DNA of 64,000 nucleotides from Acidobacteriaceae bacterium (GCA_003161045.1 PMPH01000019.1:1925-65924); one strand, 5' to 3'. Shown: positions 6,317 through 26,030, numbered from the stretch's first letter. Notes: a model not told the origin generated them from the letters alone. Numbers and translations are program-made.

Positions 6317-7801
6317 TTATAGGTCCCGGTAGTTACCGTACGATTCGTTCAGAATCTCCACCGGGTGAAGAACTTTATAGGGCAGCGCCTGGTTGAACTG
6401 GATGCGGCAGCTCAGGCAGTCGCACAGCAGCTTCTCGGGATCAATCTTGACGATCTTGTCCATGAGCGGCCGCCCCATGGCCAGCGAGGCGTGGTGGAAG
6501 CCCCTCTTAAGGCCCATGATGCCCGAGATTCCGCAGCAATCGTAGGTTCCGCCGACCGCCTCGACCGAACTCTGCGGCACCAGGCCGAGCAGCTCCGCCC
6601 AGGGCTGTCCCATCTTCTGCTGCTTCAGGTGGCAGGGGGCGTAGTAGGCCATGCGGCCGGTCACCGGCCCCAGCTTCAGGTTCAGTTGGCCGTCGCGGTG
6701 CAGCCGCGTCAGGTACTCTCCCAGGTCGAAGGTATGGCTGGCGACCTTGATCCGCTTGAGCCCGTTGAGCGGGGCGAAGTAGCTCTGATCCCGGAGCAGC
6801 CCCTCGACAATCATTCTCAGCGGCAAAAAGGGGCGCAGGCCATGGGAGACCATCCGGAGCGGCGTGGAGGGCCGGTCTGGATCTAAAGGATGCTCTGAGG
6901 GAGGGGCATGAAACCCTTCGTTCAACTGCGCCTCGATGCGCCCGATGGGGATTTTGAGCACGTCGCCGCCGTATTCAGCCTGGAGCTTTTTCACCATGGC
7001 GCGAAAGTCGTCGGAAAAGTAAGCGCCGTCGCTGAACATGTCCTTCAGCATGTAGCTGCAGGTGGGGCAGGAGCAGACGATATCGTAGCCCTCGTCGATG
7101 GCCTCGCTGAGTTTTTCCAGATTGAACGCGGCCTGCTTGAAGGTGAACTTACGGTCTCCCTCCAGCAGGCTGGGCATTCCGCAGCACTTCTGCTCGGGAA
7201 GGTAGACGTTGATTCCATTCTGTTCCATCACCTCGACCGCGGCCCTAGCCACCTCCGGGAAGTAGTACCGCGCCGTGCAGCCGGCGAAGTAGGCTACCTT
7301 CCTGCCGGAGGCCTCCCGCTTCCGGTCGAGTCCGCGTTCTTTCACCCAGGCCGAAAAGCCTTCCGAGGGTATGGCGGGAAACTTGCGGGCGGGATGAATC
7401 CCCGTCAGCCGCTTGAAGAACCCGAAGGCGGTTTTATTTTCCAGAAACCGGTTGGCCAGTTGCGGAAAGGCGCCGCAGATCCTTCCCACCAGTTGCACGT
7501 CCTCGAGCACGCGCAGGCTGGGCTTCAGCCCCTCCCGCGCCACGAATCCGTCCTTTGCCCGCCGGATGTTGGCGCGCTCCCCAGGACAGGGGCACAGCCC
7601 GCACATATTGCACAGATCGACGAGCAGCCGCAGATCCCGCGGCGTGATCGGCTCATTTCCCTCATGTTCCTTGTCGTAAAGCTGATAGAGCCGATGAAAG
7701 AACAGGCAGGGCATATCGTCGACGATGTCGCGGCAGTAGCCGCAACTGGCGCACGACTCGATCACCTTGCGGGTGATGCTCTCCGGGGACTCATCCGTCA
7801 T
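6317..7801 (-). CDS. GlpC/HdrD-like Fe-S oxidoreductase (2x 4Fe-4S plus two CCG domains)
   Basis: CASCGYC..C, CNMCGLCPCP; YFAGC..CCG..SCPTC; YAPCH..CCG..DCLSC..Q; HPVEIL C-terminus. Confidence 0.85.
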   Translation of the reverse strand: MTDESPESITRKVIESCASCGYCRDIVDDMPCLFFHRLYQLYDKEHEGNEPITPRDLRLLVDLCNMCGLCPCPGERANIRRAKDGFVAREGLKPSLRVLEDVQLVGRICGAFPQLANRFLENKTAFGFFKRLTGIHPARKFPAIPSEGFSAWVKERGLDRKREASGRKVAYFAGCTARYYFPEVARAAVEVMEQNGINVYLPEQKCCGMPSLLEGDRKFTFKQAAFNLEKLSEAIDEGYDIVCSCPTCSYMLKDMFSDGAYFSDDFRAMVKKLQAEYGGDVLKIPIGRIEAQLNEGFHAPPSEHPLDPDRPSTPLRMVSHGLRPFLPLRMIVEGLLRDQSYFAPLNGLKRIKVASHTFDLGEYLTRLHRDGQLNLKLGPVTGRMAYYAPCHLKQQKMGQPWAELLGLVPQSSVEAVGGTYDCCGISGIMGLKRGFHHASLAMGRPLMDKIVKIDPEKLLCDCLSCRIQFNQALPYKVLHPVEILNESYGNYRDL

Positions 7802-8130
7802 TTTTCGCCCTCACTGCGGCTTGCCTGGCCTGAACCGCGAATCCAGGACAGTGAATCCAGGCGGCCATCAGAGCCATCTGGCTGTTGACTCGCGCCCAGC
7901 CACGGCGAGCCCAGCTCCAGCAGCGGGGTCCGGAAGAACCTGAAATTGGTAGAAGCGGGAACCCATGGCGGGCTGTGGTGCGCTGGGTGCATAATTAAAG
8001 GATTGCAACTCCGCGCAAACGCTTCGGTTAAATGTGGGCTGCACACGATCGCCATGGAAACTTTCGTGTGCAACCCACCACAGCCAGCCAACTCCGCGCG
8101 AATATAAGAACTGGCGGCCGTTCTTGTAGT

Positions 8131-8146
8131 AGCAATTAGCCTGCCA
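8131..8146 (-). promoter_or_regulatory. sigma54 -24/-12 promoter for the CCG-protein gene
   Basis: Minus strand TGGCAGGCTAATTGCT matches TGGCA-N6-TTGCW. Confidence 0.75.
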
Positions 8147-8373
8147 TAAAGCCTCCGCCGTCCCATTTGCGTTCACCGGCAGCGCATTCTCCTTTGGAAA
8201 ATCTCTGCGCACCTGCTCCGGGGCTGAGTGCAGCGGCCTAACAGCAGCAAAAAACAGACTTTAATCTCATCAAACTGGTCTCCGGCTTCTCCGTTGCGGA
8301 GAACTGGGGTGCAGCCGCTTGATTTTGCCGGATCGCGTGGCTATCAGTGCGGGCAAATCTCGCTCAAAATATT

Positions 8374-8409
8374 TGTCACGATTCGTGACAGTCGCTCCAT
8401 TTCGTGACA
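8374..8409. promoter_or_regulatory. Tandem upstream activator sequence (bEBP enhancer)
   Basis: Perfect palindrome TGTCACG-ATT-CGTGACA (8374-8390) plus a second site CGCTCCA-TTT-CGTGACA 19 bp later. Confidence 0.75.
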
Positions 8410-8603: not shown

Positions 8604-8619
8604 TGGCACGATTCGTGCA
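8604..8619 (+). promoter_or_regulatory. sigma54 -24/-12 promoter for the aor1 operon
   Basis: TGGCACGATTCGTGCA; differs by one base from the promoter at 19503. Confidence 0.8.
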
Positions 8620-8913: not shown

Positions 8914-10650
8914 ATGGAAATGGATAAGATTTGGCGTGTAAACCTGTCGGACCTGAGCGTCAAGAGCGAGCCAGTTCCGGCAGCGTGGGCTGGCCTCGGC
9001 GGACGGGCATTGACCTCGACGATTGTGGCGGCGGAAGTACCTCCAACCTGTCACCCGCTAGGACCGAATAACAAGCTGGTGTTTTGCCCCGGCTTGCTGA
9101 CCGGAACGGTCGCCGCGGATTCCGGGCGGCTTTCGGCGGGCGCCAAGAGCCCCTTGACCGGCGGCATCAAGGAGAGCAATGTCGGCGGCACGGCCGGGCA
9201 GATGCTGGCCAAGCTGGGCGTCAAGGCGCTGATCATTGAAGGCCATCCGACCGACGGCAAGTGGCACGGACTCTACCTCAACCAGGAAGGCCTGCGGATC
9301 GAGGAAGAGACCGAGACCCTCGGCAAGGGCAACTACGAGTCGGTCCAGATTCTGAATGAGCGCGTCAACAAGAGAGTTGGCGTGGTCGTTTGCGGGCCCG
9401 CCGGCGAGATGAAGATGCTGACCGCGAACATCTCCGTCAAGGATCCTGACAGCCATATCCGCAGCATTGGACGCGGTGGTTTGGGTGCGGTGATGGGCTC
9501 CAAGAAGCTGAAGTTCATTGCCGTTGACGCCAGCGGCGCGACCGGCATGCCGATTGCCGACCCGGAGAAGTTCAAGGCCGCTGGCAAGGCCTGGGCCGAT
9601 GCCCTGATGGCTCATGGCGTGAGCGGTTCGGCGCTGAAGACCTACGGCACCAACATCCTGATCAACATCCTGAACGAAGCCGGCGGCCTGCCGACGCACA
9701 ACTTCACCGCGGGACAGTGCAAGGAACACGATGCTTTCTCCGGCGAAACGATGCACGACACCATCGTCAAGCGCGGCGGAAACCCGTCACACGCTTGCCA
9801 TCCCGGCTGCGTCATTCAGTGCTCGCAGATTTACAACGACGCGGAAGGCAAGTACCTGGCCTCCGGCCTTGAGTACGAGACGGTCTGGGCCCTCGGCGCC
9901 GACTCCGGCATCGCGAATCTGGATCAGATCGCCGAAGCCGACCACATCATGGACGATCTTGGTGTGGATTCGATCGAGACCTCGGTCATGTTCGCCGTAG
10001 CCATGGAGGGAGGCGCCATTCCCTGGGGAGATGGAGCTGAAGTTCTCCGCGTTCTCAAGGAGGAAATCGCCAAGGGAACTCCATTTGGCCGCCTTCTGGG
10101 CGCCGGCACCGAGGCAGTTGGCAAAGCCTATGGCCTGACCCGCGTTCCGGTGGTCAAGCACCAGGCCATTCCGGCCTATGATCCGCGCTCGGTCAAGGGC
10201 ATCGGCATCACCTATGCAACCTCGACGATGGGCGCCGACCACACCTCCGGCTATACCATCGCCACCAACATCCTGGGCGTGGGCGGACACGTCGACCCGT
10301 TGAAGAAGGACGGACAGATCGATCTGTCGCGCAACCTGCAGATTGCCACCGCCTCGGTTGATTCGACCGGCATGTGCATCTTCGTCGCCTTCCCGGTACT
10401 GGATAGCGCGGAGTGCTTCCAGTCGCTGCTTGATCTGATCAATGCGCGTTACGGCATTGCTTTGACCGGCGACGATGTGGTCGGCTTGGGCAAGTATGTG
10501 CTCACGACCGAGCATAAGTTCAATTTGGCTGCCGGCATGACGAACAAGGACGACAGACTGCCCGAGTTCTTCGAGTACGAGCCGGTTGCTCCGCACAACG
10601 CTGTTTGGGATTTCACCCCCGAAGAGATCGACAGCTACTGGAACTTCTAA
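8914..10650 (+). CDS. aor: Tungsten-dependent aldehyde:ferredoxin oxidoreductase family protein (AOR1)
   Basis: KSPLTGGIKESN, GPAGE, GRGGLGAVMGSKKLK, CHPGCVIQC, LEYET, DDLGVDSI, YDPR, GADHT, DSTGMC, DDRLP; RBS AAGGAG before ATG 8914. Confidence 0.93.
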   Translation: MEMDKIWRVNLSDLSVKSEPVPAAWAGLGGRALTSTIVAAEVPPTCHPLGPNNKLVFCPGLLTGTVAADSGRLSAGAKSPLTGGIKESNVGGTAGQMLAKLGVKALIIEGHPTDGKWHGLYLNQEGLRIEEETETLGKGNYESVQILNERVNKRVGVVVCGPAGEMKMLTANISVKDPDSHIRSIGRGGLGAVMGSKKLKFIAVDASGATGMPIADPEKFKAAGKAWADALMAHGVSGSALKTYGTNILINILNEAGGLPTHNFTAGQCKEHDAFSGETMHDTIVKRGGNPSHACHPGCVIQCSQIYNDAEGKYLASGLEYETVWALGADSGIANLDQIAEADHIMDDLGVDSIETSVMFAVAMEGGAIPWGDGAEVLRVLKEEIAKGTPFGRLLGAGTEAVGKAYGLTRVPVVKHQAIPAYDPRSVKGIGITYATSTMGADHTSGYTIATNILGVGGHVDPLKKDGQIDLSRNLQIATASVDSTGMCIFVAFPVLDSAECFQSLLDLINARYGIALTGDDVVGLGKYVLTTEHKFNLAAGMTNKDDRLPEFFEYEPVAPHNAVWDFTPEEIDSYWNF

Positions 10651-10751: not shown

Positions 10752-10976
10752 ATGCAGGTTCAAGTCAGACTTTACGCTACCTTTCGCAACGACAGATTCA
10801 ACGAGCAGATGCGGGATTATCCGCCGGGCACGACCATCAAAAATGTGCTCGATGATCTGAAGATCGAGGAGTCACTGGTCGGCACGCTCTTTGTCGATTT
10901 CAAGTACGCAACCTCGGATCAGGAACTTCATGAGGGCGCCAATCTCGGCATCTTCCCGGTAGTCGGAGGAGGATAG
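10752..10976 (+). CDS. moaD: MoaD/ThiS family sulfur carrier
   Basis: 74 aa, VQVRLYATFR, C-terminal IFPVVGGG. Confidence 0.88.
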   Translation: MQVQVRLYATFRNDRFNEQMRDYPPGTTIKNVLDDLKIEESLVGTLFVDFKYATSDQELHEGANLGIFPVVGGG

Positions 10977-10979: not shown

Positions 10980-12005
10980 ATGCCGGAAGTCTCTTTCAAC
11001 GATTATTACTCGCGCCAGATTCTCTTTCGCGGCATCGGGGCCGAGGGTCAGCGCAAGCTCGCGGATGCGCGCGTGGCCATCGCCGGCTGCGGGGCCACCG
11101 GATCGGCCATCGCCTCCCTGCTGGCGCGCGCCGGGGTGGGATTTCTGCGCATCATCGACCGGGATTACATCGAGCCCAGCAATCTGCAGCGGCAGACGCT
11201 CTTCGACGAGGCCGACGCGGCCCAGTTTCTTCCCAAGGCGGCGGCGGCGGCCCGAAGGCTTTCGCAGTGCAACTCCCAGGTGACGATCGAGCCGCAGATC
11301 GAGGATCTGACGCCCGGCAATGTGGAGAAGCTGCTGGGCGACTGCGCGCTGATCATGGATGGGACCGACAACTTCGAGACCCGCTACCTGATCAACGACT
11401 ACGCCATTTCGAAGGGCATTCCCTGGATTTATACCGCGGCCATCGGCAGCGTGGGCGTGACGATGAACATCCTGCCGGGCGAGACGGCCTGCGTGGCCTG
11501 CATGTTCCCCGAATCGCAGCGTGGCGCGGGCGAGACCTGCGACACCGCCGGCATTCTGAACGCGGCGGTCACCTTCATTGCCGCCAATGCTGCCGCCGAG
11601 GCCCTGAAGTTCTTCGTTGGATCGAAGGATCTGATGCGGCGCACCCTGCTCACCCAGGATCTCTGGTGGAACGATCACGCCGAGATTCCCGCCGCCACCC
11701 CCAGGGAGGATTGCCGGTGCTGCCAGCAGCGGGAATTTCCGCACCTTTCCGGGGAAAACCGGCCGCACATCTCGCTCTGCGGCAGAAATTCCGTGCAGAT
11801 TCACGAAAAGAGCAAGGTGATCGACCTGGCCGGGCTTGAGCAACGGCTGGCGGCGCACGGCGCGGTCCGCCGGAATGAATTCGCGCTGCGTTTCTGGCGC
11901 GAGCCCTACGAGATGACGATCTTCCCCGACGGCCGGGCCATCATCAAGGGAACCACCGACATAGGTATTGCTCGCAGCCTGTATGCCCGGTTTGTGGGCG
12001 CCTGA
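10980..12005 (+). CDS. moeB: MoeB/ThiF family adenylyltransferase
   Basis: YSRQI, GCGATG, DRDYIEPSNLQRQ, DGTDNFETR, CxxC pairs. Confidence 0.9.
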   Translation: MPEVSFNDYYSRQILFRGIGAEGQRKLADARVAIAGCGATGSAIASLLARAGVGFLRIIDRDYIEPSNLQRQTLFDEADAAQFLPKAAAAARRLSQCNSQVTIEPQIEDLTPGNVEKLLGDCALIMDGTDNFETRYLINDYAISKGIPWIYTAAIGSVGVTMNILPGETACVACMFPESQRGAGETCDTAGILNAAVTFIAANAAAEALKFFVGSKDLMRRTLLTQDLWWNDHAEIPAATPREDCRCCQQREFPHLSGENRPHISLCGRNSVQIHEKSKVIDLAGLEQRLAAHGAVRRNEFALRFWREPYEMTIFPDGRAIIKGTTDIGIARSLYARFVGA

Positions 12006-12030: not shown

Positions 12031-12075
12031 CGTGATTTGAATCACACTATCTCGAATCTGAGTTGGTAGTATAAT
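12031..12075 (+). promoter_or_regulatory. CRP/FNR-type box plus sigma70 -10 upstream of the activator gene
   Basis: CGTGA-TTTGAA-TCACA (12031-12046); TGnTAGTAT/TATAAT at 12064-12075. Confidence 0.6.
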
Positions 12076-12093: not shown

Positions 12094-14118
12094 GTGCTTA
12101 CGCCGAAGAATAATCTCGTTGTTCAGAGCGCATGGCAGCAGTACACTGCGGGCGCGTCGCTTGACGTCCGCCACCTGAGCCCTGAGATTGCCAGTTCCTG
12201 GCAGCGTTGCCAGAACCTGAACGTCGATCCCTTGCGCACGGCCGACAGCGAGATTGACCGCAGCGAACTCAAAGAGCGGCTGCATCAGCACCGTTCCCTC
12301 GTCAAGATCGCCCGGCCGGTGATGGAACGGCTCTACGAGTTCGTCAAAGGCACCGGATTCCAGATTGTGCTGAGCGACGAAACCGGCTACCTTCTCGACG
12401 TCATCGGCGACCCCGAGGTCACCTCCCGCACCAGCGAGAATCAGTTGTGTCCGGGCGGAAACTGGAGTGAGCCGTCGAAGGGCACCAACGCCATCGGCAC
12501 CGCCATCTTCGAGCGCAAGCCGGTGCAGGTCTTCGCCTCCGAGCACTACTGCCAGACCAACCACTTCCTGGTCTGCTCCGCCGCGCCGATTTTTTCCGCC
12601 GAAGGCCAGATGGCCGGTGTGCTCGACCTGAGCGGCGATTACCGCGCCTCCAATGTGCACACCCTGGGAATGGTGGTGGCCGCGGCCGGGGCCATCGAGA
12701 ATCAACTGCGCCTTCAGTATGTTACCGACCAGCTCCGCACCGCCTACCGCTACTCGAAGATTCTGCTCGATCATATGTCGGATGGGCTGATCTCGGTCGA
12801 TCACCGGGGGATTATCACCGAACTCAACGCCAGGGGAGCGGGGATTTTTAGCGTGGACCCCAAGGCGGTCAGAGGGAGGCACGTCACCCAGTTGACCGAT
12901 TGCCAGATTCCCATGCTCCAGCTGCTGAACGACGGCGCCGGTTACGAGGAGAAGGAAATTGTCTGCAACCGCTCGGGGAAGAAGCTTCGCAGCTCGGCTT
13001 CGCTGCTGCGCGACGACAATGGGTCGGTGATCGGCGCGGTCGCCCTCTTCCACGAGATCGACCGCTGGAGGACAGCGGCCAAGCAGCATTCCCTTCCCGC
13101 GCGCCGCAACACCTTCGACGATATTGTGGGCCAGAGTGCGGCCATGAACGAGTTGAAGCGGCAGGCGATGCTGGCGGCGGGCAGCTCCTCGACAATCCTG
13201 CTGGAAGGCGAGAGCGGCACGGGCAAGGAATTGATTGCGCAGGCCGTTCACAACGGCGGACAGAGGAGCGGAGGGCCGTTCATCGCGGTCAACTGCGCGG
13301 CCCTGCCGGAGTCGCTGATCGAAAGCGAGCTCTTCGGCTACGAGGAGGGCTCGTTTACCGGAGCCAAACGGGGCGGGCAGGCGGGCAAGTTCGAGATGGC
13401 CGACGGCGGAACGCTGTTTCTGGATGAGATCGGCGACATGCCGCTGAGCGCGCAGATGAAGCTGCTGCGGGTCATACAGGAGCGCAGAGTGGCCCGCATC
13501 GGCACCGCAATCGAGCGCCAGGTCGACATTCGCATCATCGCCGCAACGCTGAAAAACCTGAAGCTGGAGGTAAAGGACGGCCGCTTCCGCCAGGACCTCT
13601 ACTATCGGCTGAATGTTCTCAGCCTGCGCATTCCGCCCCTGCGCGAACGGCGGGAGGACATACCGCAGTTGACGCAGCACCTGGTGGAGAAAATCTCGCT
13701 GCGTTTGAAGATCGAGCCCAAACAGTTTGAGGATGGCGTGCTGGAGAGATTCAAAGCCTATTCCTGGCCGGGCAATGTGCGCGAACTGGAGAATGTGATC
13801 GAGCGCGCAATCAATCTGGCCGACGACGATTTGCTGTTGCGCGCGGCTTACTTCAACCTGGGCGATCTGGATGCGGAGCCGGCGGGAGCTTCATCGCCGG
13901 AAGGGACTCCGGTGCGGAATCTGGCCGATCTGGAGAGAGAGATGATCTGCAAAGCGGTTGCCTCCTACGGAGGCAAGATTCACAAGGCCGCCATTTCGCT
14001 GGGAATCAGCCGCAACACGCTCTATCGAAAGATGAAGGAATACGGAATCGGCGACACCGCGACACCGGAGGCAGGGGCGCAGGTGGACGCGGCGGAACCG
14101 GTCACGGCAGGGCGCTAA
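12094..14118 (+). CDS. sigma54-dependent activator, GAF-PAS-AAA+-Fis HTH (AcoR/AorR-like)
   Basis: [23 protein letters not shown] (AcoR-type GAF); [49 protein letters not shown]. Confidence 0.95.
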
Positions 14119-18087: not shown

Positions 18088-19070
18088 CAGCCGCCGATTT
18101 GAGCCATCGAAAATGGCGTGATCGCCGATCCGGGCTCGCGCAGATGGTGCCGGGCGGGTTTGCTCACGATCACTCGCTTCAAAACAGCCTTCAACTGGCT
18201 GTCGCTGCCCTCCAGGTAAGGCTTCAGATCGGTCTCGCTATTATCAAAGAGGCAGCCCTTGATGGTTCCCGTCGCGGTGACGCGAACGCGGTTGCAGGAT
18301 TCGCAGAAGTGCGACGAAACCGGCGTGATGATGCCGAGCGTTCCCTTCCCGCCGGGAATTCTGCAGAGTCTGGCGGGACCAGCCGATTGGGCGCTCTCCA
18401 ATGGCTCCAGCGGATAGACCTGGCTGATGCGCTCGAAGATCTCCTGCCCGGAGACGAATGCCGAGGACCAGTCCGGCACGAGGCTGGTGGGCATATATTC
18501 GATGAACCTGACCTGATGAGGCCGGCGCACCGTCAGAGCCGCGAAGTCCAGCAGTTCACCGTCGTTGGTTCCACGCACCACTACCACGTTGATCTTCGCC
18601 GGTGGAAAGCCGGCCTCTTCGGCGGCCTCGATTCCATCGAGGACTTTGGCAAGGTGGCCCCCGCGGGTGATGCTGGCAAAGGTTTCCGGCTTCAGCGAAT
18701 CGAGGCTGACGTTGATCCTGTGAACGCCCGCGCGGCGCAGTTCCGGCGCAAGCTTCCGCAAAAAAAAGCCATTGGTAGTAAGTACAAGCTCTTTGAGGCC
18801 ATCGATGGCGGCCAACTCCGCCAAAAAACCCACTAAATCCTTTCGGATCAGTGGTTCTCCGCCGGTAATTCTGATCTTTTCAATGCCCAGCGAGACTGCC
18901 AGCCGCGCGATGCGGTGCAGTTCCTCATAGGTTAGTATCTCGCTGTGCTGTAACTTGTGAACGCCCTCGGCGGGCATGCAGTATTGGCAGCGAAGGTTGC
19001 ATCGGTGGGTGACCGAAAGCCGGAGGTAATTAATGCGACGACCATGAATATCCGTAACGCCCATAGACAA
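18087..19070 (-). CDS. moaA: GTP 3',8-cyclase
   Basis: YLRLSVT.RCNLRCQYCMP, TGGEPL, FCESCNRVR, C-terminal MAQIGG. Confidence 0.97.
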   Translation of the reverse strand: MSMGVTDIHGRRINYLRLSVTHRCNLRCQYCMPAEGVHKLQHSEILTYEELHRIARLAVSLGIEKIRITGGEPLIRKDLVGFLAELAAIDGLKELVLTTNGFFLRKLAPELRRAGVHRINVSLDSLKPETFASITRGGHLAKVLDGIEAAEEAGFPPAKINVVVVRGTNDGELLDFAALTVRRPHQVRFIEYMPTSLVPDWSSAFVSGQEIFERISQVYPLEPLESAQSAGPARLCRIPGGKGTLGIITPVSSHFCESCNRVRVTATGTIKGCLFDNSETDLKPYLEGSDSQLKAVLKRVIVSKPARHHLREPGSAITPFSMAQIGG

Positions 19071-19276: not shown

Positions 19277-19312
19277 TGTTACATTTTGAGACAAATGTTC
19301 CATCTTGCAACT
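19277..19312. promoter_or_regulatory. Tandem upstream activator sequence (second copy)
   Basis: TGTTACA-TTT-TGAGACA (19277-19293) and TGTTCCA-TCT-TGCAACT 19 bp later. Confidence 0.7.
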
Positions 19313-19447: not shown

Positions 19448-19518
19448 TGGCAAAGCCTTTGCTGCCTGCGCCGGCAAATAAAAAGCCGCACTATTGCGAA
19501 TTTGGCACGGTTCGTGCA
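19448..19518 (+). promoter_or_regulatory. Two tandem sigma54 promoter matches for the Fe-S/aor2 operon
   Basis: TGGCAAAGCCTTTGCT (19448-19463) and TGGCACGGTTCGTGCA (19503-19518). Confidence 0.75.
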
Positions 19519-19676: not shown

Positions 19677-20159
19677 ATGGCCAAGGTTTTTATGATTCAT
19701 CCGGAGCGCTGCACCGGGTGTCAGAACTGCCGCATGGCTTGCAGCTTCAGCCACGAAAATCAGTTTCGCCCCGCCGCGGCCAGAGTGCACGTTTTCACCT
19801 CCGAGCGGGAGGGCTACTCGGTTCCGATGATGTGCCAGCAGTGCGACGCGGCCCCGTGCATGAAGGTCTGCCCGACCGGAGCTCTTTATCGCGCCCAGGG
19901 CAGCACGCTGGTCGAGTATGCGCGCGCCAAATGCATGGGCTGCCGTATGTGCACTATGGCCTGCCCGTTTGGCAGCGCGGTCTATGACAGCGTAACCGAG
20001 TCGATCCTGAAGTGCGATACCTGTGGCGGGGAACCGGCCTGCGCGCTGTTCTGCCCTACCCAAGCCATTGAATTCATTGAGGAAAACATCTCCACCCGCA
20101 CGCGAAGAAGAGCCTTCGCCGCCAAGTTCAAGTCGGCTTTCGAGGGAGCGCGGCCATGA
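19677..20159 (+). CDS. Four-cluster 4Fe-4S protein (AorA/DmsB/HydN-like electron-transfer subunit)
   Basis: CTGCQNCRMAC, CQQCDAAPCMKVCP, CMGCRMCTMACP, KCDTC...CALFCP; ATGA overlap with aor2. Confidence 0.92.
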   Translation: MAKVFMIHPERCTGCQNCRMACSFSHENQFRPAAARVHVFTSEREGYSVPMMCQQCDAAPCMKVCPTGALYRAQGSTLVEYARAKCMGCRMCTMACPFGSAVYDSVTESILKCDTCGGEPACALFCPTQAIEFIEENISTRTRRRAFAAKFKSAFEGARP

Positions 20160-21976
20160 ACGGATGGAGCGGCACGATTCTGCGCGTCAATCTCTCGACC
20201 GGAACTGTCTCGACGCAGCCCACCAATCTGAAGGACGCGGTGCTCTATATCGGGGCGCGCGGACTGGGCGACAAGCTCTATATCGACGAAGTGGACGCGC
20301 GGGTTGACCCGCTTTCCCCGGACAATAAAATTGTCTTCGCGCCGGGCCCCTTCTCGGGCACCCTCGCGCCCTCGGGCGGACGCTATCATGTGGTCACCAA
20401 AGGGCCGCTGACGGACGCCATCGCCGGATCGAACGCGAGCGGCCTCTTCGGGCCGGAGTTGCGCTACGCCGGCTACGACGCGCTGATCGTCGAGGGCAAG
20501 GCTCCGGAGCCGGTTTACCTGTGGATCAAGGACGATGTGGTGGAAATCCGCAAGGCCGCGCATCTGTGGGGCAAATGGGTTCCCGAGACGACGGAGATGA
20601 TCCAGGCCGAGACCGATCTCGACGCCCGGGTGGCCTGCATCGGGCCGGCCGGCGAAAAACGGGTTCTGTTTGCGTCGATCATGAACGACGTGCACTCTGC
20701 GGCGGGCCGGTCGGGGGTGGGCGCGGTCATGGGCTCGAAGAACCTCAAGGCCATCGCGGTATACGGAACCAAACCGATCAAAGTGGCGCATCCCAGGGCC
20801 TTCCGGGAGGCTATTTTGGAGGCGCGCGAGACGGGAAACAGAAATTCGGCCGGGGGCGCGGGGCTGAAGGCGTACGGCGTCGATGTTCCGCTCGACACTC
20901 TCAATGAGCTCGGCTCGCTGGCCGCGAATAACTTCCAGCAGAGCTATATTCCTGCCGCCGGCAAGGGCGATCACCTCTCCGCATCGCCCAGTAGCCCGGC
21001 TCGTCCCAGGGGCTGCTACTCCTGCGTAATGAGGTGCGGACGCATCAGCAAGGTCAAGAATCCCGGCTATGCGAGCCAAATCGCGGAGCAGGCGCAGGAG
21101 GAGGGCCTGTCAGTTGCCTTCGATCGTGGCGCCTTCGATCACGGCATCGATAACACTGCCGCCATGATTCAGAGCAATCAGATTTGCGACGAGATGGGCA
21201 TGGACCCGATCTCGCTGGGGGCGACCGTGGCCTGCGCGATGGAGATGTTCGAGGCGGGCATTATCACGGTGAAGGACACAGACGGCCTAGACCTGAGCTT
21301 CGGCAACTCCGCGGTAATGGTCGATCTGACGCGGAAGATCGGGCTGCGCGATGGCTTTGGCAACAAGCTCGCGGTGGGCTCCTATCGCTTCGCCAACTCC
21401 TACGGGCATCCGGAGTTTTCGATGACCGTGAAGAAGCAGGAGATTCCGCCCTACGATCCGCGCGGCATTCAGGGCATCGGCCTGGAGTACGCCACCTGCA
21501 ACCGCGGCGGATGCCACACCAAGGGCTACACGGTGGCGGTAGAAGTGCTGGGCTTCGGGGATAGCCGCGATCCTCACGCCACGGCCGACAAACCCTTCTG
21601 GGTGAAGCTATTCCAGGATCTGACGGCGGCCATCGACGCCTCCGGCGGGTGCATCTTCGGGACCTCGGGCCGGGGTGGGGAAAACTACGCGGCGCTGCTG
21701 ACCGCGCTTACCGGGGTCACTTACTCGACGGAGGAATACGTCAAGGCCGGCGAGCGGATCTGGAATCTGGAGAGGCTCTTCAACCTGCAGGCGGGATTCA
21801 CCAGCAAGGACGACCAGTTGCCCTCGCGCTTCACTACCAGCCCGATCAGCAGCGGCCCCGCCAAGGGGCAGATCAGCCATGTACCGGAGATGCTCACCGC
21901 GTATTACAAGCTGCGCGGATGGGATGAGGACGGCATGCCCACCCAGGAGCGGCTGCGCGAGCTGCAACTTGGCTAA
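20156..21976 (+). CDS. aor: AOR sensu stricto homologue with degenerate active-site segment (AOR2)
   Basis: ILRVNLSTG, VDPLSPDNK, GGRYHVVTK.PLT, GVGAVMGSKNLKAIAV, CYSCVMRCGR, CDEMGMD, YDPRG, NRGGCH, ERIWNLERLFN, YYKLRGW; no GPEYE. Confidence 0.92.
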   Translation: MNGWSGTILRVNLSTGTVSTQPTNLKDAVLYIGARGLGDKLYIDEVDARVDPLSPDNKIVFAPGPFSGTLAPSGGRYHVVTKGPLTDAIAGSNASGLFGPELRYAGYDALIVEGKAPEPVYLWIKDDVVEIRKAAHLWGKWVPETTEMIQAETDLDARVACIGPAGEKRVLFASIMNDVHSAAGRSGVGAVMGSKNLKAIAVYGTKPIKVAHPRAFREAILEARETGNRNSAGGAGLKAYGVDVPLDTLNELGSLAANNFQQSYIPAAGKGDHLSASPSSPARPRGCYSCVMRCGRISKVKNPGYASQIAEQAQEEGLSVAFDRGAFDHGIDNTAAMIQSNQICDEMGMDPISLGATVACAMEMFEAGIITVKDTDGLDLSFGNSAVMVDLTRKIGLRDGFGNKLAVGSYRFANSYGHPEFSMTVKKQEIPPYDPRGIQGIGLEYATCNRGGCHTKGYTVAVEVLGFGDSRDPHATADKPFWVKLFQDLTAAIDASGGCIFGTSGRGGENYAALLTALTGVTYSTEEYVKAGERIWNLERLFNLQAGFTSKDDQLPSRFTTSPISSGPAKGQISHVPEMLTAYYKLRGWDEDGMPTQERLRELQLG

Positions 21977-22220
21977 TGAAGAAATTCATGCCGGTGATGA
22001 TGCGGAACGGCTGACCGAGCTGAGTTCCTGCCCCGTGTGCGGAAAGCCGGTGCGGCTGGCCAGCGAGGAGTTGCTGCGCACGGCCTTCGACTGCATCAAA
22101 GAAGAAACCCGCCAACTGCTCGGGCTCTGCGAACGCTGCCGGAGGCGCGAAGTGCAACGGAAGCTGATCGCCGCATCGGGCGATGGAAAAGCGAAAAAGA
22201 GAACCGCTAATCTCCTCTAA
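21969..22220 (+). CDS. Small CxxC...CxxC metal-binding protein
   Basis: TTG start overlapping the aor2 stop (start uncertain); CPVCGKP and LCERCRR. Confidence 0.6.
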   Translation: MANEEIHAGDDAERLTELSSCPVCGKPVRLASEELLRTAFDCIKEETRQLLGLCERCRRREVQRKLIAASGDGKAKKRTANLL

Positions 22221-22535
22221 ACCTGCTAGAATTGGCAACGTGTTTTAACGGAGCGAGCATCACCGGCTCGCGCGTTCTGCACAGATAGCTCTGAAGCCGC
22301 AAGGTCTTTTGAGCCGCGGTGCAGTTTGAGCGGCAGTCCGGTTTACGCGGCGTGCAGTTTGTGCATGGCACAATTTGAGAACAGTATCGTTTAAACGACA
22401 GTACAGTTTGACAGGCCGTGAGATAATTCCGGCACGGGCTTGGTCTGAAGTTAAGCGCGAAAAAGATTGGCAACCCACGAACAAGATTGGCAACTGAAAG
22501 GCTATTCCCTGAAATTCAATTCGTTGAGGTGCTCC

Positions 22536-23414
22536 ATGAAGTTGAAACTCGCACTGGCCGCGCTGGCGGTTGCGTCCCTCTGTTCCTTTGCCACGGCGGA
22601 GGATCATCTGAAGATGTCCACGACAACCTCGACCGAGAACTCGGGACTGTTGACCGTCCTGTTGCCGCCCTTTGAAAAAGAGTGCGGATGCAAGGTCGAC
22701 GTGATCGCGGTGGGCACGGGCAAGGCTCTGAAACTGGGCGAGACCGGCGATGTCGACGTGGTGCTGGTTCATGCGCGCGGGCTGGAAGACAAGTTTGTCG
22801 CCGCCGGCTTCGGCATCAATCGCCGCGACGTGATGTACAACGACTTCGTGGTGATCGGCCCGCCCAACGATCCGGCCGGCCTGCGGGAAACCACCTCGGC
22901 GGTTGATGCCTTCAAGCGCATTGACGCTACGCATTCCACCTTCATCTCGCGCGGCGACAACTCCGGCACCGATGTGAAGGAGAAGCAAATCTGGTCGGCC
23001 GCCGGCATTACGCCCTCCGGCGCCTGGTACCGCTCGGCCGGGCAAGGCATGGGAGAGGTCATCAACATGGCGACCGAGTTGCGCGGTTATACGCTGGCCG
23101 ACCGGGGAACCTATAACGCCTTTCGCCATGGAAAGACCGACCTGGTGATTCTCTATGACGCCAACCGCGGACTGGAGCGGCCCGGCGCGCCCGCGCCCCG
23201 GCTTACCGTCGATCAGGTCCTGGCCCGCGCAGGCGCCAATGGGCTCTTGAACCCCTACGGCGTGATCGCGGTGAACCCGAAGAAGTTTCCCTGGGTGAAA
23301 TTCGATCTGGCCATGAAGTTCGAGGACTTCATCACCGGGCCCGAGGGACAGAGCATTATCGCCAACTACCACGTGCAGGGCGACCCAGTCTTCTTCACCT
23401 TCAAGGAGAAGTAG
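22536..23414 (+). CDS. tupA: Tungstate ABC transporter substrate-binding protein
   Basis: Signal peptide, diagnostic TTTS motif, GTGKAL, VLVHA, VMYNDF, FISRGDNSGT, NPYGVIAVNP. Confidence 0.95.
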   Translation: MKLKLALAALAVASLCSFATAEDHLKMSTTTSTENSGLLTVLLPPFEKECGCKVDVIAVGTGKALKLGETGDVDVVLVHARGLEDKFVAAGFGINRRDVMYNDFVVIGPPNDPAGLRETTSAVDAFKRIDATHSTFISRGDNSGTDVKEKQIWSAAGITPSGAWYRSAGQGMGEVINMATELRGYTLADRGTYNAFRHGKTDLVILYDANRGLERPGAPAPRLTVDQVLARAGANGLLNPYGVIAVNPKKFPWVKFDLAMKFEDFITGPEGQSIIANYHVQGDPVFFTFKEK

Positions 23415-23417: not shown

Positions 23418-24113
23418 GTGGGTTTTATTTCAGATTCACTCCGGGAGGCGCTGGCTCTGATTCTCGCGGGAGACCGCGAGGTCTTCACCGCCGTCCTGAC
23501 ATCGCTCGATGTTGCCGTCTGGTCGGTGATCTTCGCCTCCATTGGCGGCGTTCCAGTGGGCATTGCCGTGGCGCTGGGCAAGTTCCCGATGATGGGCGCG
23601 ATTCGGGTCTTGCTGAACAGCCTCATGGCGATGCCGACGGTGGTGGTCGGGCTGGTGGTGTACGGATTTCTCAGCCGCATGGGGCCGTTTGGCTCGCTGG
23701 GGCTGCTGTTCACGCCGCAGGCCATTATCATCGGCGAGACGGTTCTCGCCATGCCGGTGGTGGCAAATTACACCGTGGCGGCGATTCAGGGGGCCGATGA
23801 AAGGATTCTTCCCACGGCCCTCACCCTGGGCGCCAGCCGCTTTCAGAGCCTCTGCCAGTTGACGCGCGAGGTGCGCTTCGGGGTCGTCGCCGCGATCATC
23901 GCGGGCTTTGGCAGAGTGATCGCCGAGGTCGGCGTGGCGATGATGCTCGGCGGCAACATCCGTTTCTTTACGCGCACCATGACGACCGCCATTGCGCTGG
24001 AGACCAGCAAGGGAGAGTTTGCCTTCGGCTTGGCCCTGGGCGTGATCCTGATGAGCGTTTCGCTGGCGGTGAATATCTTCCTCACACTCGCGCAAGAAAG
24101 CCACAGCGCATGA
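23418..24113 (+). CDS. tupB: Tungstate ABC transporter permease
   Basis: PTVVVGLVVY..LSR.GPFG, GFGRVIAEVG..MMLGGNI, TRTMTTAIALET.KG. Confidence 0.95.
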   Translation: MGFISDSLREALALILAGDREVFTAVLTSLDVAVWSVIFASIGGVPVGIAVALGKFPMMGAIRVLLNSLMAMPTVVVGLVVYGFLSRMGPFGSLGLLFTPQAIIIGETVLAMPVVANYTVAAIQGADERILPTALTLGASRFQSLCQLTREVRFGVVAAIIAGFGRVIAEVGVAMMLGGNIRFFTRTMTTAIALETSKGEFAFGLALGVILMSVSLAVNIFLTLAQESHSA

Positions 24114-24829
24114 GCATTGCAAAGTACCGACTCAGCTCCATTCAGGCAATGCATGGCAAAACCGTCAGCCTGACCATCGATGAACTTAGCATCGCCGCCG
24201 GAGAGCTTCATCTTCTGGCGGGCTCCAACGGCTCGGGAAAGAGCACGCTGCTGGGCATTCTGGCCTTCCTCAACAAACCGCAGCAGGGAACGGTCTATTT
24301 TGACGGCACGCCGGTGAGCTGGGAGCCGAAAGAGTGCGCTGCCTTGCGCCGGCGGGTCACCTTGCTTCACCAGACCCCCTACCTGTTCTCCGGCACCGTG
24401 GCCGCCAATGTCTCCTTCGGCCTGGTGGCGCGCGGCGTAGGCAAGGAAAGCGCGCAGAGCGCGGTGCGGGAGTCGCTGGAACGGGTTGGCCTGGAGGGCT
24501 TTGAATTGCGTAAGGCCCGGCAGCTCTCCGGCGGTGAGAGCCGTCGCGTGGCCCTGGCGCGGGCCTTGGCCTGCAAATCCGAGGCGCTGCTGCTGGATGA
24601 ACCCTTTGCCAATGTGGACCGGGCCAGCGCCGCCCTGCTGGAGTCCGTGGTCGCTTCTCTTGTGGCCGGCGGCATGACCGTCGTGATTTCCAGCCACGAC
24701 GAGCTTTTAGGCGCCAAGCTGGGAGCCAGGGTGATCCGCCTCGAAGACGGAAAGCTGGACGGGACGCCAGGGCCATCGCCATCCGAAGAATTTCCGCGCC
24801 AGACAGGGAGAGAGAATGCCGTCTCTTGA
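24110..24829 (+). CDS. tupC: Tungstate ABC transporter ATPase
   Basis: GSNGSGKST, LSGGE, LLLDEP, SSH; in operon with tupAB. Confidence 0.9.
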   Translation: MSIAKYRLSSIQAMHGKTVSLTIDELSIAAGELHLLAGSNGSGKSTLLGILAFLNKPQQGTVYFDGTPVSWEPKECAALRRRVTLLHQTPYLFSGTVAANVSFGLVARGVGKESAQSAVRESLERVGLEGFELRKARQLSGGESRRVALARALACKSEALLLDEPFANVDRASAALLESVVASLVAGGMTVVISSHDELLGAKLGARVIRLEDGKLDGTPGPSPSEEFPRQTGRENAVS

Positions 24830-26030
24830 AGAAGCACGCCGCTTGATTCTCGAGCGCGCTCATACGCTGGGGAATGAATCGGTCGAGTTGATCGATTCCA
24901 TGGGCCTGGTCACCGCCAAGGAGATTGCCGCGCCGTGGCAGATGCCGATGTGCGACAACTCGGCGATGGACGGCTTTGCCGTGCGCCGGGCCGACTGCCA
25001 GGACCAGGCCCGTCTGCGCATTACCGGATTCATTCCCGCCGGCTCGCTGGAAGAGGTTCAGCTCGATCCGGGCTGCGCGGTGAAGGTCATGACCGGCGCG
25101 CGGATTCCCGCCGGCTGCGATGCGGTTGTTCCTTACGAGCACACCGAAGGCCGCGACGAATTTGTGACCATCAAGGCCCCGGTGCGCGAGCATCAGCACA
25201 TTCGCTTTGCCGGCTCGGATCTGCGCTGCGGCGAGATCGTCCTTCCGGCGGGGACTGTGATTCGCGCGCCGGAGATCAGCATGATGGCCTCGTTCAGCAT
25301 GAGCCACGTGACGGTTTTTCGCCGCCCCAGGGTGGCGATACTCTCGACGGGCGACGAGTTGGTCGAGTTGGGCGAGCCCGTCGTGCCGGGCAGGATCGCC
25401 GACAGCAACGGAGTGGCGCTGGCGGCGATGGTCAAATCCTCTGGCGCGGTGGTGGAGCTGCTGGGCATCGCCCGCGATACGCACGCCAGCCACGTCGCCA
25501 AAATGAGCCTCGGACTTCAGGCCGACATCTTCATCACCTCGGCCGGAGTCTCGGTTGGAGATCGCGACCTGGTGCGCGAGGTGCTCACTGAAATGGGCAT
25601 GGAGCAGGTCTTCTATTCGATCGAGGCGCGGCCCGGCGGCCCCACCACCTTCGGAGTCAAGGGCGACCGGCTGATTTTTTGCCTGCCGGGGAACCCAGTG
25701 GCGTCGATGATCGTTTTCGACGAACTGGTGAAGCCCGCAATCCTGAAGGCAATGGGTTATAAACGCATCCTCCCGCCGGTGATTCGCGCGGTTTTACAGG
25801 AAGATGTGGCCAAAAAACCGGGTCTGGCCAAGTTTCTGAGGGTTCGGCTGGAGCCCGGCGGCGAGAGATTCCTGGCCTATAGCTCGGGCGCGCAGACCAC
25901 CGGAATGCTGAAGACGCTGGCGCGCGCCGACGGGATTGCCGTGCTCCCCTCGGAGCGGTCATCGTACAGCGCCGGCGACGAAGTGGACGTGCACCTGATT
26001 TCAGACCACGTGCTCCGGCTTGAAGCGTAG
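24816..26030 (+). CDS. moeA: Canonical molybdopterin molybdo/tungstotransferase (gephyrin-like)
   Basis: DNSAMDGFAV, MTGA.IP.G.DAVV, STGDEL, DSN, SAGVSVGDRD, LPGNPVA. Confidence 0.95.
   Translation: MPSLEEARRLILERAHTLGNESVELIDSMGLVTAKEIAAPWQMPMCDNSAMDGFAVRRADCQDQARLRITGFIPAGSLEEVQLDPGCAVKVMTGARIPAGCDAVVPYEHTEGRDEFVTIKAPVREHQHIRFAGSDLRCGEIVLPAGTVIRAPEISMMASFSMSHVTVFRRPRVAILSTGDELVELGEPVVPGRIADSNGVALAAMVKSSGAVVELLGIARDTHASHVAKMSLGLQADIFITSAGVSVGDRDLVREVLTEMGMEQVFYSIEARPGGPTTFGVKGDRLIFCLPGNPVASMIVFDELVKPAILKAMGYKRILPPVIRAVLQEDVAKKPGLAKFLRVRLEPGGERFLAYSSGAQTTGMLKTLARADGIAVLPSERSSYSAGDEVDVHLISDHVLRLEA

What the first reader, a model, noticed from the sequence alone, without database searches (positions are those of the whole stretch)
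6317..26030. A ~20 kb self-regulating tungsten aldehyde-oxidoreductase island in an acidobacterial-type genome
Seen: two AOR-family genes, an Fe-S subunit, a CCG protein, tupABC (TTTS motif), moaA, moaD, moeB, three moeA genes and one AcoR-like sigma54 activator, clustered between housekeeping genes. Known: AORs are W-bis-pterin enzymes characterised mainly in archaea, clostridia, sulfate/iron reducers and Aromatoleum, and TupA is tungstate-selective. Inference: an anaerobic aldehyde/alcohol oxidation or acid-reduction module with an unusual composition. It has no AorC-like flavoprotein, and instead has a CCG protein and a degenerate AOR. moaC, moaE and mogA/moaB are absent here and must come from elsewhere.
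Basis: partly seen in the sequence, partly recalled or inferred. Interest (0 to 1): 0.8.

Follow-up and report, generated by a model that had tools for sequence, protein, structure and literature searches.

The report
Acquired tungsten aldehyde-oxidase island, Acidobacteriaceae
A peat-soil acidobacterium carries a real, horizontally acquired 20-kb gene island that takes up tungsten, builds the tungsten cofactor and makes two aldehyde-oxidising enzymes under one sigma-54 switch. One of the two enzymes descends from a hydrogen-producing complex that has lost its hydrogenase.

Summary
The host is a Terracidiphilus-like Acidobacteriaceae MAG.

Three points of the interpretation change.
- The AOR at 8914-10650 ("AORx") is not degenerate. 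It belongs to a large, conserved 576-aa clade, with all cofactor and second-shell residues intact and a clade-wide Cx3Cx3C cluster motif.
- The AOR with the odd active-site segment is the other one, 20156-21976. It and its three nearest homologues lack the GPEYExxW motif, which 116 of 120 homologues keep.
- That AOR and its polyferredoxin come from a lineage in which the pair is followed by a six-gene membrane [NiFe] hydrogenase. That module is missing here. Only a 74-residue piece of one hydrogenase subunit remains.

Both AOR operons carry the same sigma-54 promoter, with a palindrome 226-230 bp upstream. Both elements recur in relatives.

AOR genes were not found in 83 distinct sampled genomes of the same family. 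The island lies where synteny with same-genus genomes stops.

AOR-MoaD-MoeB-tup-moeA clusters are already known, and this scan has noted similar loci on other DNA. I call this a new variant of a known kind, of moderate interest.

The parts
6317..7801 (-). HdrD/GlpC-like Fe-S protein with two CCG domains (494 aa), divergent from the first AOR
   Evidence: Pfam CCG 3.4e-20. GlpC model 226 bits, below its 278 cut-off. Motifs CxxCxxC x2 and CCG x2. Orthologues lie divergently next to AORx in L056 (72%) and in L019, L020 and L022 (46-50%). dN/dS 0.18.
8374..8390 (.). Perfect palindrome TGTCACGATTCGTGACA, candidate activator binding site (UAS), 230 bp upstream of the promoter
   Evidence: The same element lies upstream of AORx in L056 and in L017, L023, L030 and L043. 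Regex background 0.012 per kb.
8604..8619 (+). Sigma-54 type -24/-12 promoter TGGCACGATTCGTGCA, ahead of AORx-moaD-moeB
   Evidence: Identical in L056. rpoN is in the genome.
8914..10650 (+). AORx: single-subunit tungsten aldehyde oxidoreductase of a conserved 576-aa clade
   Evidence: AFOR_N and AFOR_C. 309 bits to 9mqx_D and 291 to 1aor. YGT, EYE, PAYDPR, ADH, DxxGxD and DxxGxC all present. Clade-wide Cx3Cx3C motif. dN/dS 0.15.
10752..10976 (+). AOR-linked MoaD/ThiS sulfur carrier (74 aa, ends GGG)
   Evidence: Pfam ThiS. It follows AORx in about 15 of 39 genome loci.
10980..12005 (+). MoeB/ThiF adenylyltransferase
   Evidence: Pfam ThiF 6.8e-67. PRK12475 349 bits.
12094..14118 (+). Sigma-54 enhancer-binding activator, GAF-PAS-AAA+-HTH (AcoR/DhaR type)
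   Evidence: Orthologue at the same place in L055 (93%), L056 (77%), and L057, L061 and others (68-71%).
14193..14645 (-). Conserved small membrane protein of unknown function (150 aa)
   Evidence: No Pfam family. dN/dS 0.125. Found next to MoeA-PBP in 15+ loci, and in Rhodocyclaceae L020 at 35%. Atlas hits are hypothetical proteins only.
14798..16765 (-). MoeA fused to a PBP-like oxyanion-binding domain
   Evidence: MoeA_N, MoCF_biosynth, MoeA_C and PBP_like. PRK14498 729 bits, above its cut-off.
16762..18087 (-). Second, faster-evolving MoeA paralogue
   Evidence: dN/dS 0.26, and 80% aa identity where its neighbours are 90-96%.
18087..19070 (-). MoaA (radical SAM)
   Evidence: Radical_SAM and Mob_synth_C.
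19277..19293 (.). UAS-like palindrome TGTTACATTTTGAGACA, 226 bp upstream of the second promoter
   Evidence: It reads TGTTACATTTTGTGACA in L052-L055 and TGTCACGTTTTGTGACA in L065.
19503..19518 (+). Sigma-54 type promoter TGGCACGGTTCGTGCA, ahead of the polyferredoxin-AOR2 operon
   Evidence: TGGCACG-N4-CGTGCA is conserved upstream of the same operon in 11 related loci.
19677..20159 (+). Polyferredoxin subunit (WorS/AorA-like, 16 Cys, room for four [4Fe-4S] clusters)
   Evidence: Fer4 families. Cys count. dN/dS 0.05.
20156..21976 (+). AOR2: AOR sensu stricto-type catalytic subunit with a remodelled active-site segment
   Evidence: AFOR_N and AFOR_C. 658 bits to 9mqx_D. Canonical Cx2Cx3C. GPEYExxW is missing here and in only 3 other of 120 homologues. 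Indel variation in that segment among 92-94% relatives. dN/dS 0.09-0.14.
21924..22220 (+). Small ORF. Residues encoded from 21987 onward match the C-terminal Cys4 tail of the hydrogenase NuoI/HycF-like subunit of related islands.
   Evidence: 50% identity over 74 aa, E 2e-11. The ORF is open in 5 near relatives, the ATG at 21924 is conserved and CPVC...CERC is kept, with dN/dS 0.22-0.61. Nucleotide identity 90-96%, against 75-77% for true intergenic DNA.
22319..22413 (+). Four direct repeats of CAGTTTGAG-like units ahead of tupA, a possible operator
   Evidence: Function untested.
22467..23414 (+). TupA-like tungstate-binding protein (TTTS motif). The likely start is M24 at about 22536.
   Evidence: PBP_like_2. 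TupA model 225 bits, below its 400 cut-off. TTTS at residue 52.
23418..24113 (+). TupB permease
   Evidence: BPD_transp_1.
24110..24829 (+). TupC ATPase
   Evidence: ABC_tran.
24816..26030 (+). Third MoeA, canonical
   Evidence: MoeA_N, MoCF_biosynth and MoeA_C. 337 bits to PRK10680.

Best explanation
The island is a horizontally acquired, sigma-54-controlled tungsten module for oxidising aldehydes under anoxic conditions. It looks assembled from two older gene blocks.

Shown:
- Supply genes are present: tupABC, moaA, moaD, moeB and three moeA, one of them fused to an oxyanion-binding domain.
- There are two AOR-family enzymes.
- A GAF-PAS sigma-54 activator sits in the middle.
- Each AOR operon carries the same -24/-12 promoter with a palindrome about 230 bp upstream.

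Inferred mechanism:
- An aldehyde-type effector activates the regulator.
- The regulator binds the palindromes and opens both sigma-54 promoters.
- Tungstate is imported and inserted into molybdopterin. MoaC, MoaE and a MoCF_biosynth-domain protein (MoaB/MogA type) come from elsewhere in the genome.
- AORx, which is intact and of the single-subunit type, does the main aldehyde-to-acid oxidation.
- AORx probably passes electrons to ferredoxin or to the divergently encoded HdrD/GlpC-like CCG protein.

The polyferredoxin-AOR2 pair descends from a complex coupled to a membrane [NiFe] hydrogenase. In this lineage the hydrogenase genes are gone and an active-site segment of AOR2 has been rewritten. 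The pair is still under purifying selection, so it still does something. That could be aldehyde oxidation with another electron acceptor, or altered chemistry.
For: - Gene content.
- AORx is intact and belongs to a conserved clade.
- Promoters and palindromes are conserved in relatives. rpoN is present.
- Missing Moco genes lie elsewhere in the genome.
- Ancestry of the AOR2 pair: about 30 related loci have polyferredoxin-AOR-MoaD-[NuoL, B, H, I, C, D-like]-MoeB-tupABC. All 21 complete large subunits carry both NiFe motifs.
- The rows without the hydrogenase and without the motif form one clade (SH-aLRT 100) nested inside the hydrogenase-linked clade (99).
- A piece of the hydrogenase subunit remains after AOR2.
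- Purifying selection on every island gene: dN/dS 0.05-0.27.
- Acquisition. No AOR match in 40 sampled relatives (24 same-genus and 16 same-order genomes). 0 of 50 (class sample) and 0 of 33 (phylum sample) genomes of the same family. These three samples share handles and come to 83 distinct family genomes. 9 of 300 in the class.
- Both flanks are native, at 66-85% identity, but lie 180-730 kb apart in same-genus genomes, and no island genes sit next to them there.
- L056 carries the same module next to a phage-type integrase and a plasmid RepA gene.
- Independent assemblies repeat the gene order and the right-hand junction (L055, L080).
Against: - No activity, metal content or expression data exist.
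- The electron acceptor of either AOR is not shown.
- The CCG link rests on adjacency in 5 contexts, out of 39 genome loci plus the window and L056. Most AORx homologues have no CCG neighbour.
- The -12 element reads GTGC rather than TTGC.
- There is no alcohol dehydrogenase or other substrate-pathway gene in the island, so the physiological aldehyde is unknown.
- No compositional anomaly marks the island. GC3 is about 0.8 inside and outside it.
- The left junction is seen in other assemblies only by inference from equal contig lengths.
Confidence: 0.7

Rival explanations
1. One reading: a self-regulating tungsten AOR island of unusual make-up, in which a CCG protein and a degenerate AOR replace the AorC flavoprotein of AorABC-type enzymes.
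For: There is no AorC in the window or the genome. A CCG protein and two AORs are present. One AOR does have a rewritten active-site segment.
Against: - The CCG gene pairs with AORx, not with the polyferredoxin-AOR pair.
- In Rhodocyclaceae L020 the same CCG-AORx pair sits beside a complete aorABC with AorC, so it is not a substitute for AorC.
- Relatives of the polyferredoxin-AOR pair carry a membrane [NiFe] hydrogenase rather than AorC.
Confidence: 0.15
2. The island runs in reverse. The AORs reduce carboxylic acids to aldehydes, which go on to alcohols, using reduced ferredoxin as an electron sink during fermentation in acidic peat.
For: AORs are reversible at low pH and low potential (PMC6365974). 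Relatives of the island come mostly from JGI and ENA metagenome contigs, which I take to be peat or bog samples. That is my own reading and no tool tested it.
Against: There is no alcohol dehydrogenase in the island. Reported reverse rates are very low. The AcoR/DhaR-type activator fits induction by a substrate aldehyde or alcohol better than a fermentation sink.
Confidence: 0.12
3. The polyferredoxin-AOR2 pair is a decaying relic with no function. Only AORx matters.
For: The hydrogenase partner is lost, the GPEYExxW motif is lost, and the segment varies by indels among near-identical relatives.
Against: dN/dS is 0.05 for the polyferredoxin and 0.09-0.14 for AOR2 at dS of about 0.3. The frames are intact in six lineage members. 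The sigma-54 promoter and palindrome are kept. Cofactor ligands are intact. HMMER and MAFFT both place E316 opposite Glu313.
Confidence: 0.1
4. The island does not belong to this acidobacterium. It got there by mis-binning or a chimeric contig.
For: AOR genes are absent from all sampled genomes of the family. The two flanks lie far apart in relatives.
Against: - Both flanks and the island are on one 67.8-kb contig.
- Both flanks match same-genus genomes at 66-85%.
- Independent assemblies show island-HK-RR (L055, L080).
- HemC and AORx relatives share contig lengths of 69677 and 37713.
- GC3 is uniform across the window.
Confidence: 0.04

Closest known systems
AOR-MoaD-MoeB 'tungsten cofactor' gene neighbourhood (Iyer, Burroughs and Aravind 2006, PMC1779556)
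   Same: An AOR followed directly by its own MoaD and MoeB. MoeA, MoaA and a 4Fe-4S ferredoxin lie nearby. The authors called it a sporadic, probably mobile cluster.
   Different: Here it is combined with a second AOR operon, tupABC, three moeA, a sigma-54 activator and a CCG protein. The host family was not in their list.
Aromatoleum aromaticum AorABC (PDB 8c0z) and the Rhodocyclaceae arrangement seen in locus L020
   Same: A polyferredoxin plus a W-subunit. L020 reads CCG(-), AORx, MoaD, small membrane protein, AorA, AorB, AorC, MoaD, MoeA, tupCBA, which is very close in content.
   Different: The window has no AorC. Its second AOR scores higher against Acetomicrobium mobile WorL (658 bits) than against AorB (548 bits).
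WOR clade 87 'type U' (Feng et al. 2025, PMC12318220)
   Same: WorS-WorL genes upstream of a membrane complex-I-like module, rare and uncharacterised. The window's AOR2 relatives have exactly such an arrangement.
   Different: In the relatives the module has both NiFe motifs, so it is a hydrogenase rather than a quinone-linked dehydrogenase. In the window itself the module is absent. I did not test whether these loci are the paper's type U.
Pyrococcus furiosus AOR (PDB 1aor)
   Same: The fold families, the pterin-binding DxxGxD/C motifs and second-shell residues Thr243, Tyr427 and His448 are present in both window AORs. Glu313 is present in AORx.
   Different: AORx uses Cx3Cx3C instead of Cx2Cx3C. 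AOR2 lacks Tyr312 and the GPEYExxW segment.
AcoR/DhaR-type sigma-54 activators
   Same: GAF-PAS-AAA+-HTH_8 architecture. The best NCBIfam model is DhaR at 402 bits.
   Different: The score is below the DhaR cut-off of 551. The effector is unknown and the binding site is predicted only.

Membership tests
AOR/WOR family of W-bis-pterin oxidoreductases | AFOR_N plus AFOR_C domains above Pfam cut-offs | tested here: met
   AORx 205 and 240 bits. AOR2 261 and 403 bits.
AOR/WOR family of W-bis-pterin oxidoreductases | Four Cys ligands of the [4Fe-4S] cluster (Cx2Cx3C plus a distal DxxGxC Cys) | tested here: inconclusive
   AOR2 is canonical (CYSCVMRC, plus DASGGC). AORx has Ser at the first position and a clade-wide CHPGCVIQC (Cx3Cx3C) plus DSTGMC. 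That gives three nearby Cys at a different spacing.
AOR/WOR family of W-bis-pterin oxidoreductases | Pterin and Mg binding motifs DxxGxD and DxxGxC | tested here: met
   Both proteins have them.
Aldehyde-oxidising AORs (AOR sensu stricto) | Second-shell residues Thr243, Glu313, Tyr427, His448 (PMC12096430) | tested here: inconclusive
   AORx has all four. AOR2 has Thr, Tyr and His. Glu depends on the alignment: E316 lies opposite Glu313 in HMMER and MAFFT. The surrounding GPEYExxW is lost.
Aldehyde-oxidising AORs (AOR sensu stricto) | Bound tungsten and aldehyde:viologen or aldehyde:ferredoxin activity | not testable with these tools
   Needs purified protein.
AorABC / type N three-subunit AOR | FAD-containing AorC subunit encoded with AorA and AorB | tested here: not met
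   No Pyr_redox_2 gene in the island. A tblastn search with the L020 AorC found nothing in the 85%-complete genome at E 1e-5.
WorSL plus membrane module ('type U', hydrogenase-coupled) | Membrane complex-I or group-4 hydrogenase genes downstream of WorL | tested here: not met
   Only 490 bp lie between AOR2 and tupA. A 74-aa piece of the NuoI-like subunit remains. The other NuoD-like genes of the genome lack NiFe cysteines.
TupABC tungstate transporter | TupA equivalog score and TTTS anion-binding motif | tested here: inconclusive
   NF041772 scores 225 bits, below its 400 cut-off. The TTTS motif is present. The permease and ATPase genes are adjacent. Metal selectivity was not tested.
Sigma-54 regulon (bEBP, RpoN, -24/-12 promoter) | AAA+ sigma-54 interaction domain, rpoN in the genome, GG-N10-GC promoter with an upstream activator site | tested here: met
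   Sigma54_activat 1.2e-68. rpoN present. Two promoter-like sites have one mismatch each and are conserved in relatives, with palindromes 226-230 bp upstream. Transcription start sites were not tested.
GlpC / HdrD CCG Fe-S proteins | Two CCG domains after an N-terminal 2x[4Fe-4S]-type domain, and the GlpC equivalog score | tested here: inconclusive
   Two CCG domains and two CxxCxxC motifs are present. The GlpC models score 226 and 132 bits, below cut-offs of 278 and 280. No glpA or glpB lies next to it.

The most novel reading that the evidence does not exclude
After losing its hydrogenase, the polyferredoxin-AOR2 pair was kept and re-purposed. With its rewritten active-site segment it now works with the AORx-CCG module, either as a new-substrate tungsten enzyme or as a mainly electron-carrying pseudoenzyme partner. 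The three lineages that have the motif-less AOR2 also carry AORx on the same contig. For one of them (P0006/P0275) the shared contig is inferred only from equal contig lengths.
Probability: 0.2. Interest if true: 0.65.

Novelty: new variant of a known kind. Interest (0 to 1): 0.45.

Why it matters
- Acidobacteriaceae are abundant in peat and are usually regarded as aerobic heterotrophs (my own knowledge, not tested here). A working tungsten aldehyde module would give this lineage an anaerobic, low-potential reaction that its relatives lack.
- It would also make tungsten a relevant trace metal for carbon turnover in acidic wetlands.
- The comparison set shows that a whole subclade of AOR sensu stricto-type enzymes is genetically tied to a membrane [NiFe] hydrogenase. 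By analogy with formate hydrogenlyase, that suggests an 'aldehyde hydrogenlyase'.
- The window's lineage is a natural experiment in what becomes of the enzyme once that partner is lost.
- The shared promoter and palindrome give a directly testable regulon.

Tried and rejected
- Riboswitches: Rfam found nothing in the window at gathering scores or at E up to 1, so there is no Moco/Tuco riboswitch here.
- Sigma-70 promoter and terminator scans gave no more than chance.
- A sigma-54-like site facing the CCG gene (8146-8131, minus strand) is not conserved in L056, so I do not claim it.
- The 122-aa ORF at 7798-8166 was rejected as a gene.
- My first dN/dS for the piece after AOR2 ('gapfrag') was computed one base out of frame and is wrong. 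One search replaces it.
- 'Glu313 is lost in AOR2' was my first reading. I withdrew it once HMMER and MAFFT both placed E316 opposite Glu313.
- Contig C80 carries a NuoL-like gene (56% identity), but it is not the lost module. No NuoH, I, C or D genes and no AOR lie there.
- Terriglobia genomes that do have AOR genes hold no close AOR2 relative, at most 44% identity.
- Literature searches found nothing on AOR plus group-4 hydrogenase in Acidobacteria.
There is no result.
- I could not link AORx to the characterised Desulfovibrio gigas AOR or to DVU1179/Dde_2460, because I had no reference sequence for them.

Full report
**What is there.** The window is GC-rich, so many spurious ORFs appear. 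Pfam and NCBIfam pick out one consistent gene set between 6.3 and 26.0 kb:
- a two-CCG-domain Fe-S protein (6317-7801, minus strand);
- an AOR (8914-10650), followed by MoaD, MoeB and a GAF-PAS-AAA+-HTH sigma-54 activator;
- on the minus strand, moaA, a moeA, a moeA fused to a PBP-like domain, and a small membrane protein;
- a 16-Cys polyferredoxin, a second AOR, tupABC and a third moeA.

TupA has the TTTS motif and MoaD ends in GGG. The flanks are ccsA-hemACD on one side and a histidine kinase with its response regulator on the other. The assembly is a 2.72-Mb MAG, 85% complete. These are its only two AOR genes. MoaC (with a MoCF_biosynth gene beside it), MoaE and rpoN lie on other contigs.

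**Whose genome.**
- HemC from the left flank best matches proteins named Terracidiphilus sp., at 82-86%.
- HemC and the right-flank kinase have orthologues at 72-85% and 66-78% in nearly all sampled genomes of the same genus.
- In those genomes the two flanks lie 180-730 kb apart.
- No island gene sits next to ccsA-hemACD or next to the kinase in three genomes examined.
- AOR-family genes were not found in 24 same-genus and 16 same-order genomes.
- They were not found in 50 and 33 genomes of the same family, in two overlapping samples.
- They were found in only 9 of 300 genomes of the class.
- They are common elsewhere in the phylum, in 86 of 400 genomes.
- GC3 is uniform across the window.

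The island is therefore real, sits at a break in synteny, and is a rare acquisition for this family.

It is not an assembly artefact. Metagenome contigs L055 and L080 (92-96% protein identity) repeat the gene order through MoeA-HK-RR. HemC and AOR relatives also share contig lengths of 69677 and 37713 bp. That last point is an inference, not a direct observation.

**The first AOR (AORx) is not degenerate.**
- Its homologues are 576-578 aa long. They are 70-72% identical in Geobacter, Geotalea and Geomonas. They are 66-69% identical in Rhodocyclaceae, Propionivibrio and Desulfobulbaceae, and 75% identical in another Acidobacteriaceae MAG.
- Against P. furiosus AOR it keeps Thr243, Glu313, Tyr427, His448 and both pterin motifs.
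- The first cluster cysteine is Ser, but the whole clade has H-x-C-H-x-G-C-x-I-Q-C-S-Q, that is Cx3Cx3C. This is a clade signature, not decay.
- In 39 genome loci MoaD follows it in about 15, and tupABC is nearby in about 8. A sigma-54 activator is nearby in 6, and a CCG protein lies divergently upstream in 3.
- The AOR-MoaD-MoeB neighbourhood was described in 2006 as a probable mobile tungsten-cofactor cluster (PMC1779556).
- Rhodocyclaceae locus L020 reads CCG, AORx, MoaD, small membrane protein, AorA, AorB, AorC, MoaD, MoeA, tupCBA. The CCG protein therefore goes with AORx and is not a stand-in for AorC.

**The second AOR (AOR2) has a history.** Its best solved relative is 9mqx_D at 658 bits. 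I take 9mqx to be Acetomicrobium mobile WorL of WOR clade 87 (PMC12318220). That assignment is my inference.

Eighty metagenome loci were scanned with all island proteins.
- Every relative at 51-73% identity with enough downstream sequence has polyferredoxin-AOR, then MoaD, then six genes. This holds for about 30 loci.
- The six genes are a NuoL/MrpA-like antiporter subunit and NuoB-, NuoH-, NuoI-, NuoC- and NuoD-like proteins. MoeB and tupABC follow.
- All 21 complete NuoD-like proteins carry both [NiFe] motifs, CGICSNVH and DPCxSCTDR. These are group-4 membrane hydrogenases.
- The arrangement fits the rare, uncharacterised 'type U' of Feng et al., who described the partner as quinone-related.

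**What was lost in the window.** AOR2 is followed after 490 bp by tupA. The gap encodes 74 residues that are 50% identical (E 2e-11) to the C-terminal Cys4 tail of the NuoI-like subunit. The genome's other NuoD-like genes lack NiFe cysteines.

My first dN/dS for this piece was out of frame and is withdrawn. The corrected analysis shows:
- the ORF is open in five near relatives;
- the ATG at 21924 is conserved and the Cys4 motif is kept;
- there is an in-frame indel;
- dN/dS is 0.22-0.61;
- nucleotide identity is 90-96%, against 75-77% for true intergenic DNA.

It may therefore survive as a small zinc-ribbon protein rather than a dead scar.

**The remodelled segment.**
- Of the 120 best AOR2 homologues, 116 have GPEYExxW. 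Only the window protein and its three nearest relatives (77% identity or more) lack it.
- This is not a frameshift, because the other frames contain stops.
- The segment differs by indels of an FD[RH]G unit among 92-94% identical relatives.
- HMMER and MAFFT place E316 opposite Glu313, so the catalytic Glu may survive. Tyr312 and the following Trp do not.
- A quick IQ-TREE run puts the motif-less, hydrogenase-less rows in one clade (SH-aLRT 100), on a long stem of 0.19. That clade is nested in the hydrogenase-linked clade (99). Caveats: SH-aLRT support only, midpoint root, and the segment's columns were not removed.
- The rest of the protein and the polyferredoxin are under strong purifying selection, with dN/dS 0.09-0.14 and 0.05 at dS of about 0.3.

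**Mosaic origin.**
- L056, a 24-kb contig, reads CCG, AORx, MoaD, MoeB, activator, then AOR2 without a polyferredoxin. A 45-aa remnant of the small membrane protein lies between the activator and AOR2. A phage-type integrase and a RepA gene follow.
- L056 therefore looks like a deletion derivative of the window's arrangement, carried on a mobile element.
- The 71-73% relatives have the activator, moeA/moaA and polyferredoxin-AOR block, but no AORx or CCG within reach.
- The window thus joins an AORx block and a WorSL block around one activator.

**Regulation.**
- TGGCACGATTCGTGCA (8604) and TGGCACGGTTCGTGCA (19503) lie 316 and 174 nt upstream of the two operons' start codons. They are among the five one-mismatch sigma-54 matches in the 64-kb window. 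The three others are 8146-8131 (minus strand, rejected), 19448 and 54368.
- Each has a palindrome 226-230 bp upstream: TGTCACGATTCGTGACA and TGTTACATTTTGAGACA.
- The promoter form TGGCACG-N4-CGTGCA recurs upstream of the polyferredoxin operon in 11 related loci. The identical promoter and a palindrome recur upstream of AORx in L056. The palindrome alone recurs upstream of AORx in four proteobacterial loci.
- Background rates for these patterns are 0.015 and 0.012 per kb.
- No riboswitch was found.

**Verdict.** The cluster is genuine, and 'self-regulating tungsten AOR island in an acidobacterium' is right. The kind is known, and this scan has noted similar loci in other genomes.

What is new:
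- the host family;
- the two-block make-up around one sigma-54 regulon;
- the descent of one AOR from a hydrogenase-coupled complex, with loss of the hydrogenase and rewriting of an active-site segment.

Function, metal and electron acceptors remain inferred.

Noticed in passing
L061:9486-18520 and about 30 other loci (L057-L098, L112, L128, L131): Relatives of AOR2 encode polyferredoxin-AOR-MoaD followed by a six-gene membrane [NiFe] hydrogenase. Both NiFe motifs are present in 21 of 21 large subunits. This looks like an 'aldehyde hydrogenlyase', analogous to formate hydrogenlyase. Feng et al. 2025 described their type U partner as quinone-related.
   Followed up: partly
window 14193-14645 (-): A 150-aa protein with several hydrophobic segments and no family. 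It is under purifying selection and is conserved next to MoeA-PBP or AOR genes in more than 15 loci, including a Rhodocyclaceae aor cluster. It is an unrecognised regular member of tungsten/AOR clusters.
   Followed up: partly
window 6027-6040 and 12032-12045: An exact GTGAT-N4-ATCAC box lies about 40 bp upstream of ccsA-hemA and again between moeB and the sigma-54 activator gene. There are 3 matches at up to 1 mismatch against 0.78 expected.
   Followed up: partly
window 22319-22413: Four CAGTTTGAG-like direct repeats, spaced 33, 16 and 33 bp, lie just upstream of tupA. They may be an operator for a tungstate-responsive regulator.
   Followed up: no
L056:12680-16332: A phage-type integrase and a plasmid RepA_C gene lie directly downstream of a CCG-AORx-MoaD-MoeB-activator-AOR2 block on a 24-kb contig. 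This may be the vehicle that moves the module.
   Followed up: partly
L061:8440-9390: A 316-aa protein with a signal-peptide-like N-terminus and a C-terminal Phe (porin-like) sits between moaA and the polyferredoxin gene in the hydrogenase-linked relatives. There the sigma-54 promoter lies upstream of it. It is absent from the window.
   Followed up: no
window 16762-18087 (-): The middle MoeA paralogue evolves much faster than its neighbours: 80% aa identity against 90-96%, and dN/dS 0.26.
   Followed up: no
G000 contig C152: A complex-I-like gene set whose fused NuoC-NuoD-like protein has no NiFe cysteines. The 85%-complete MAG shows no genuine group-4 hydrogenase with these queries.
   Followed up: partly
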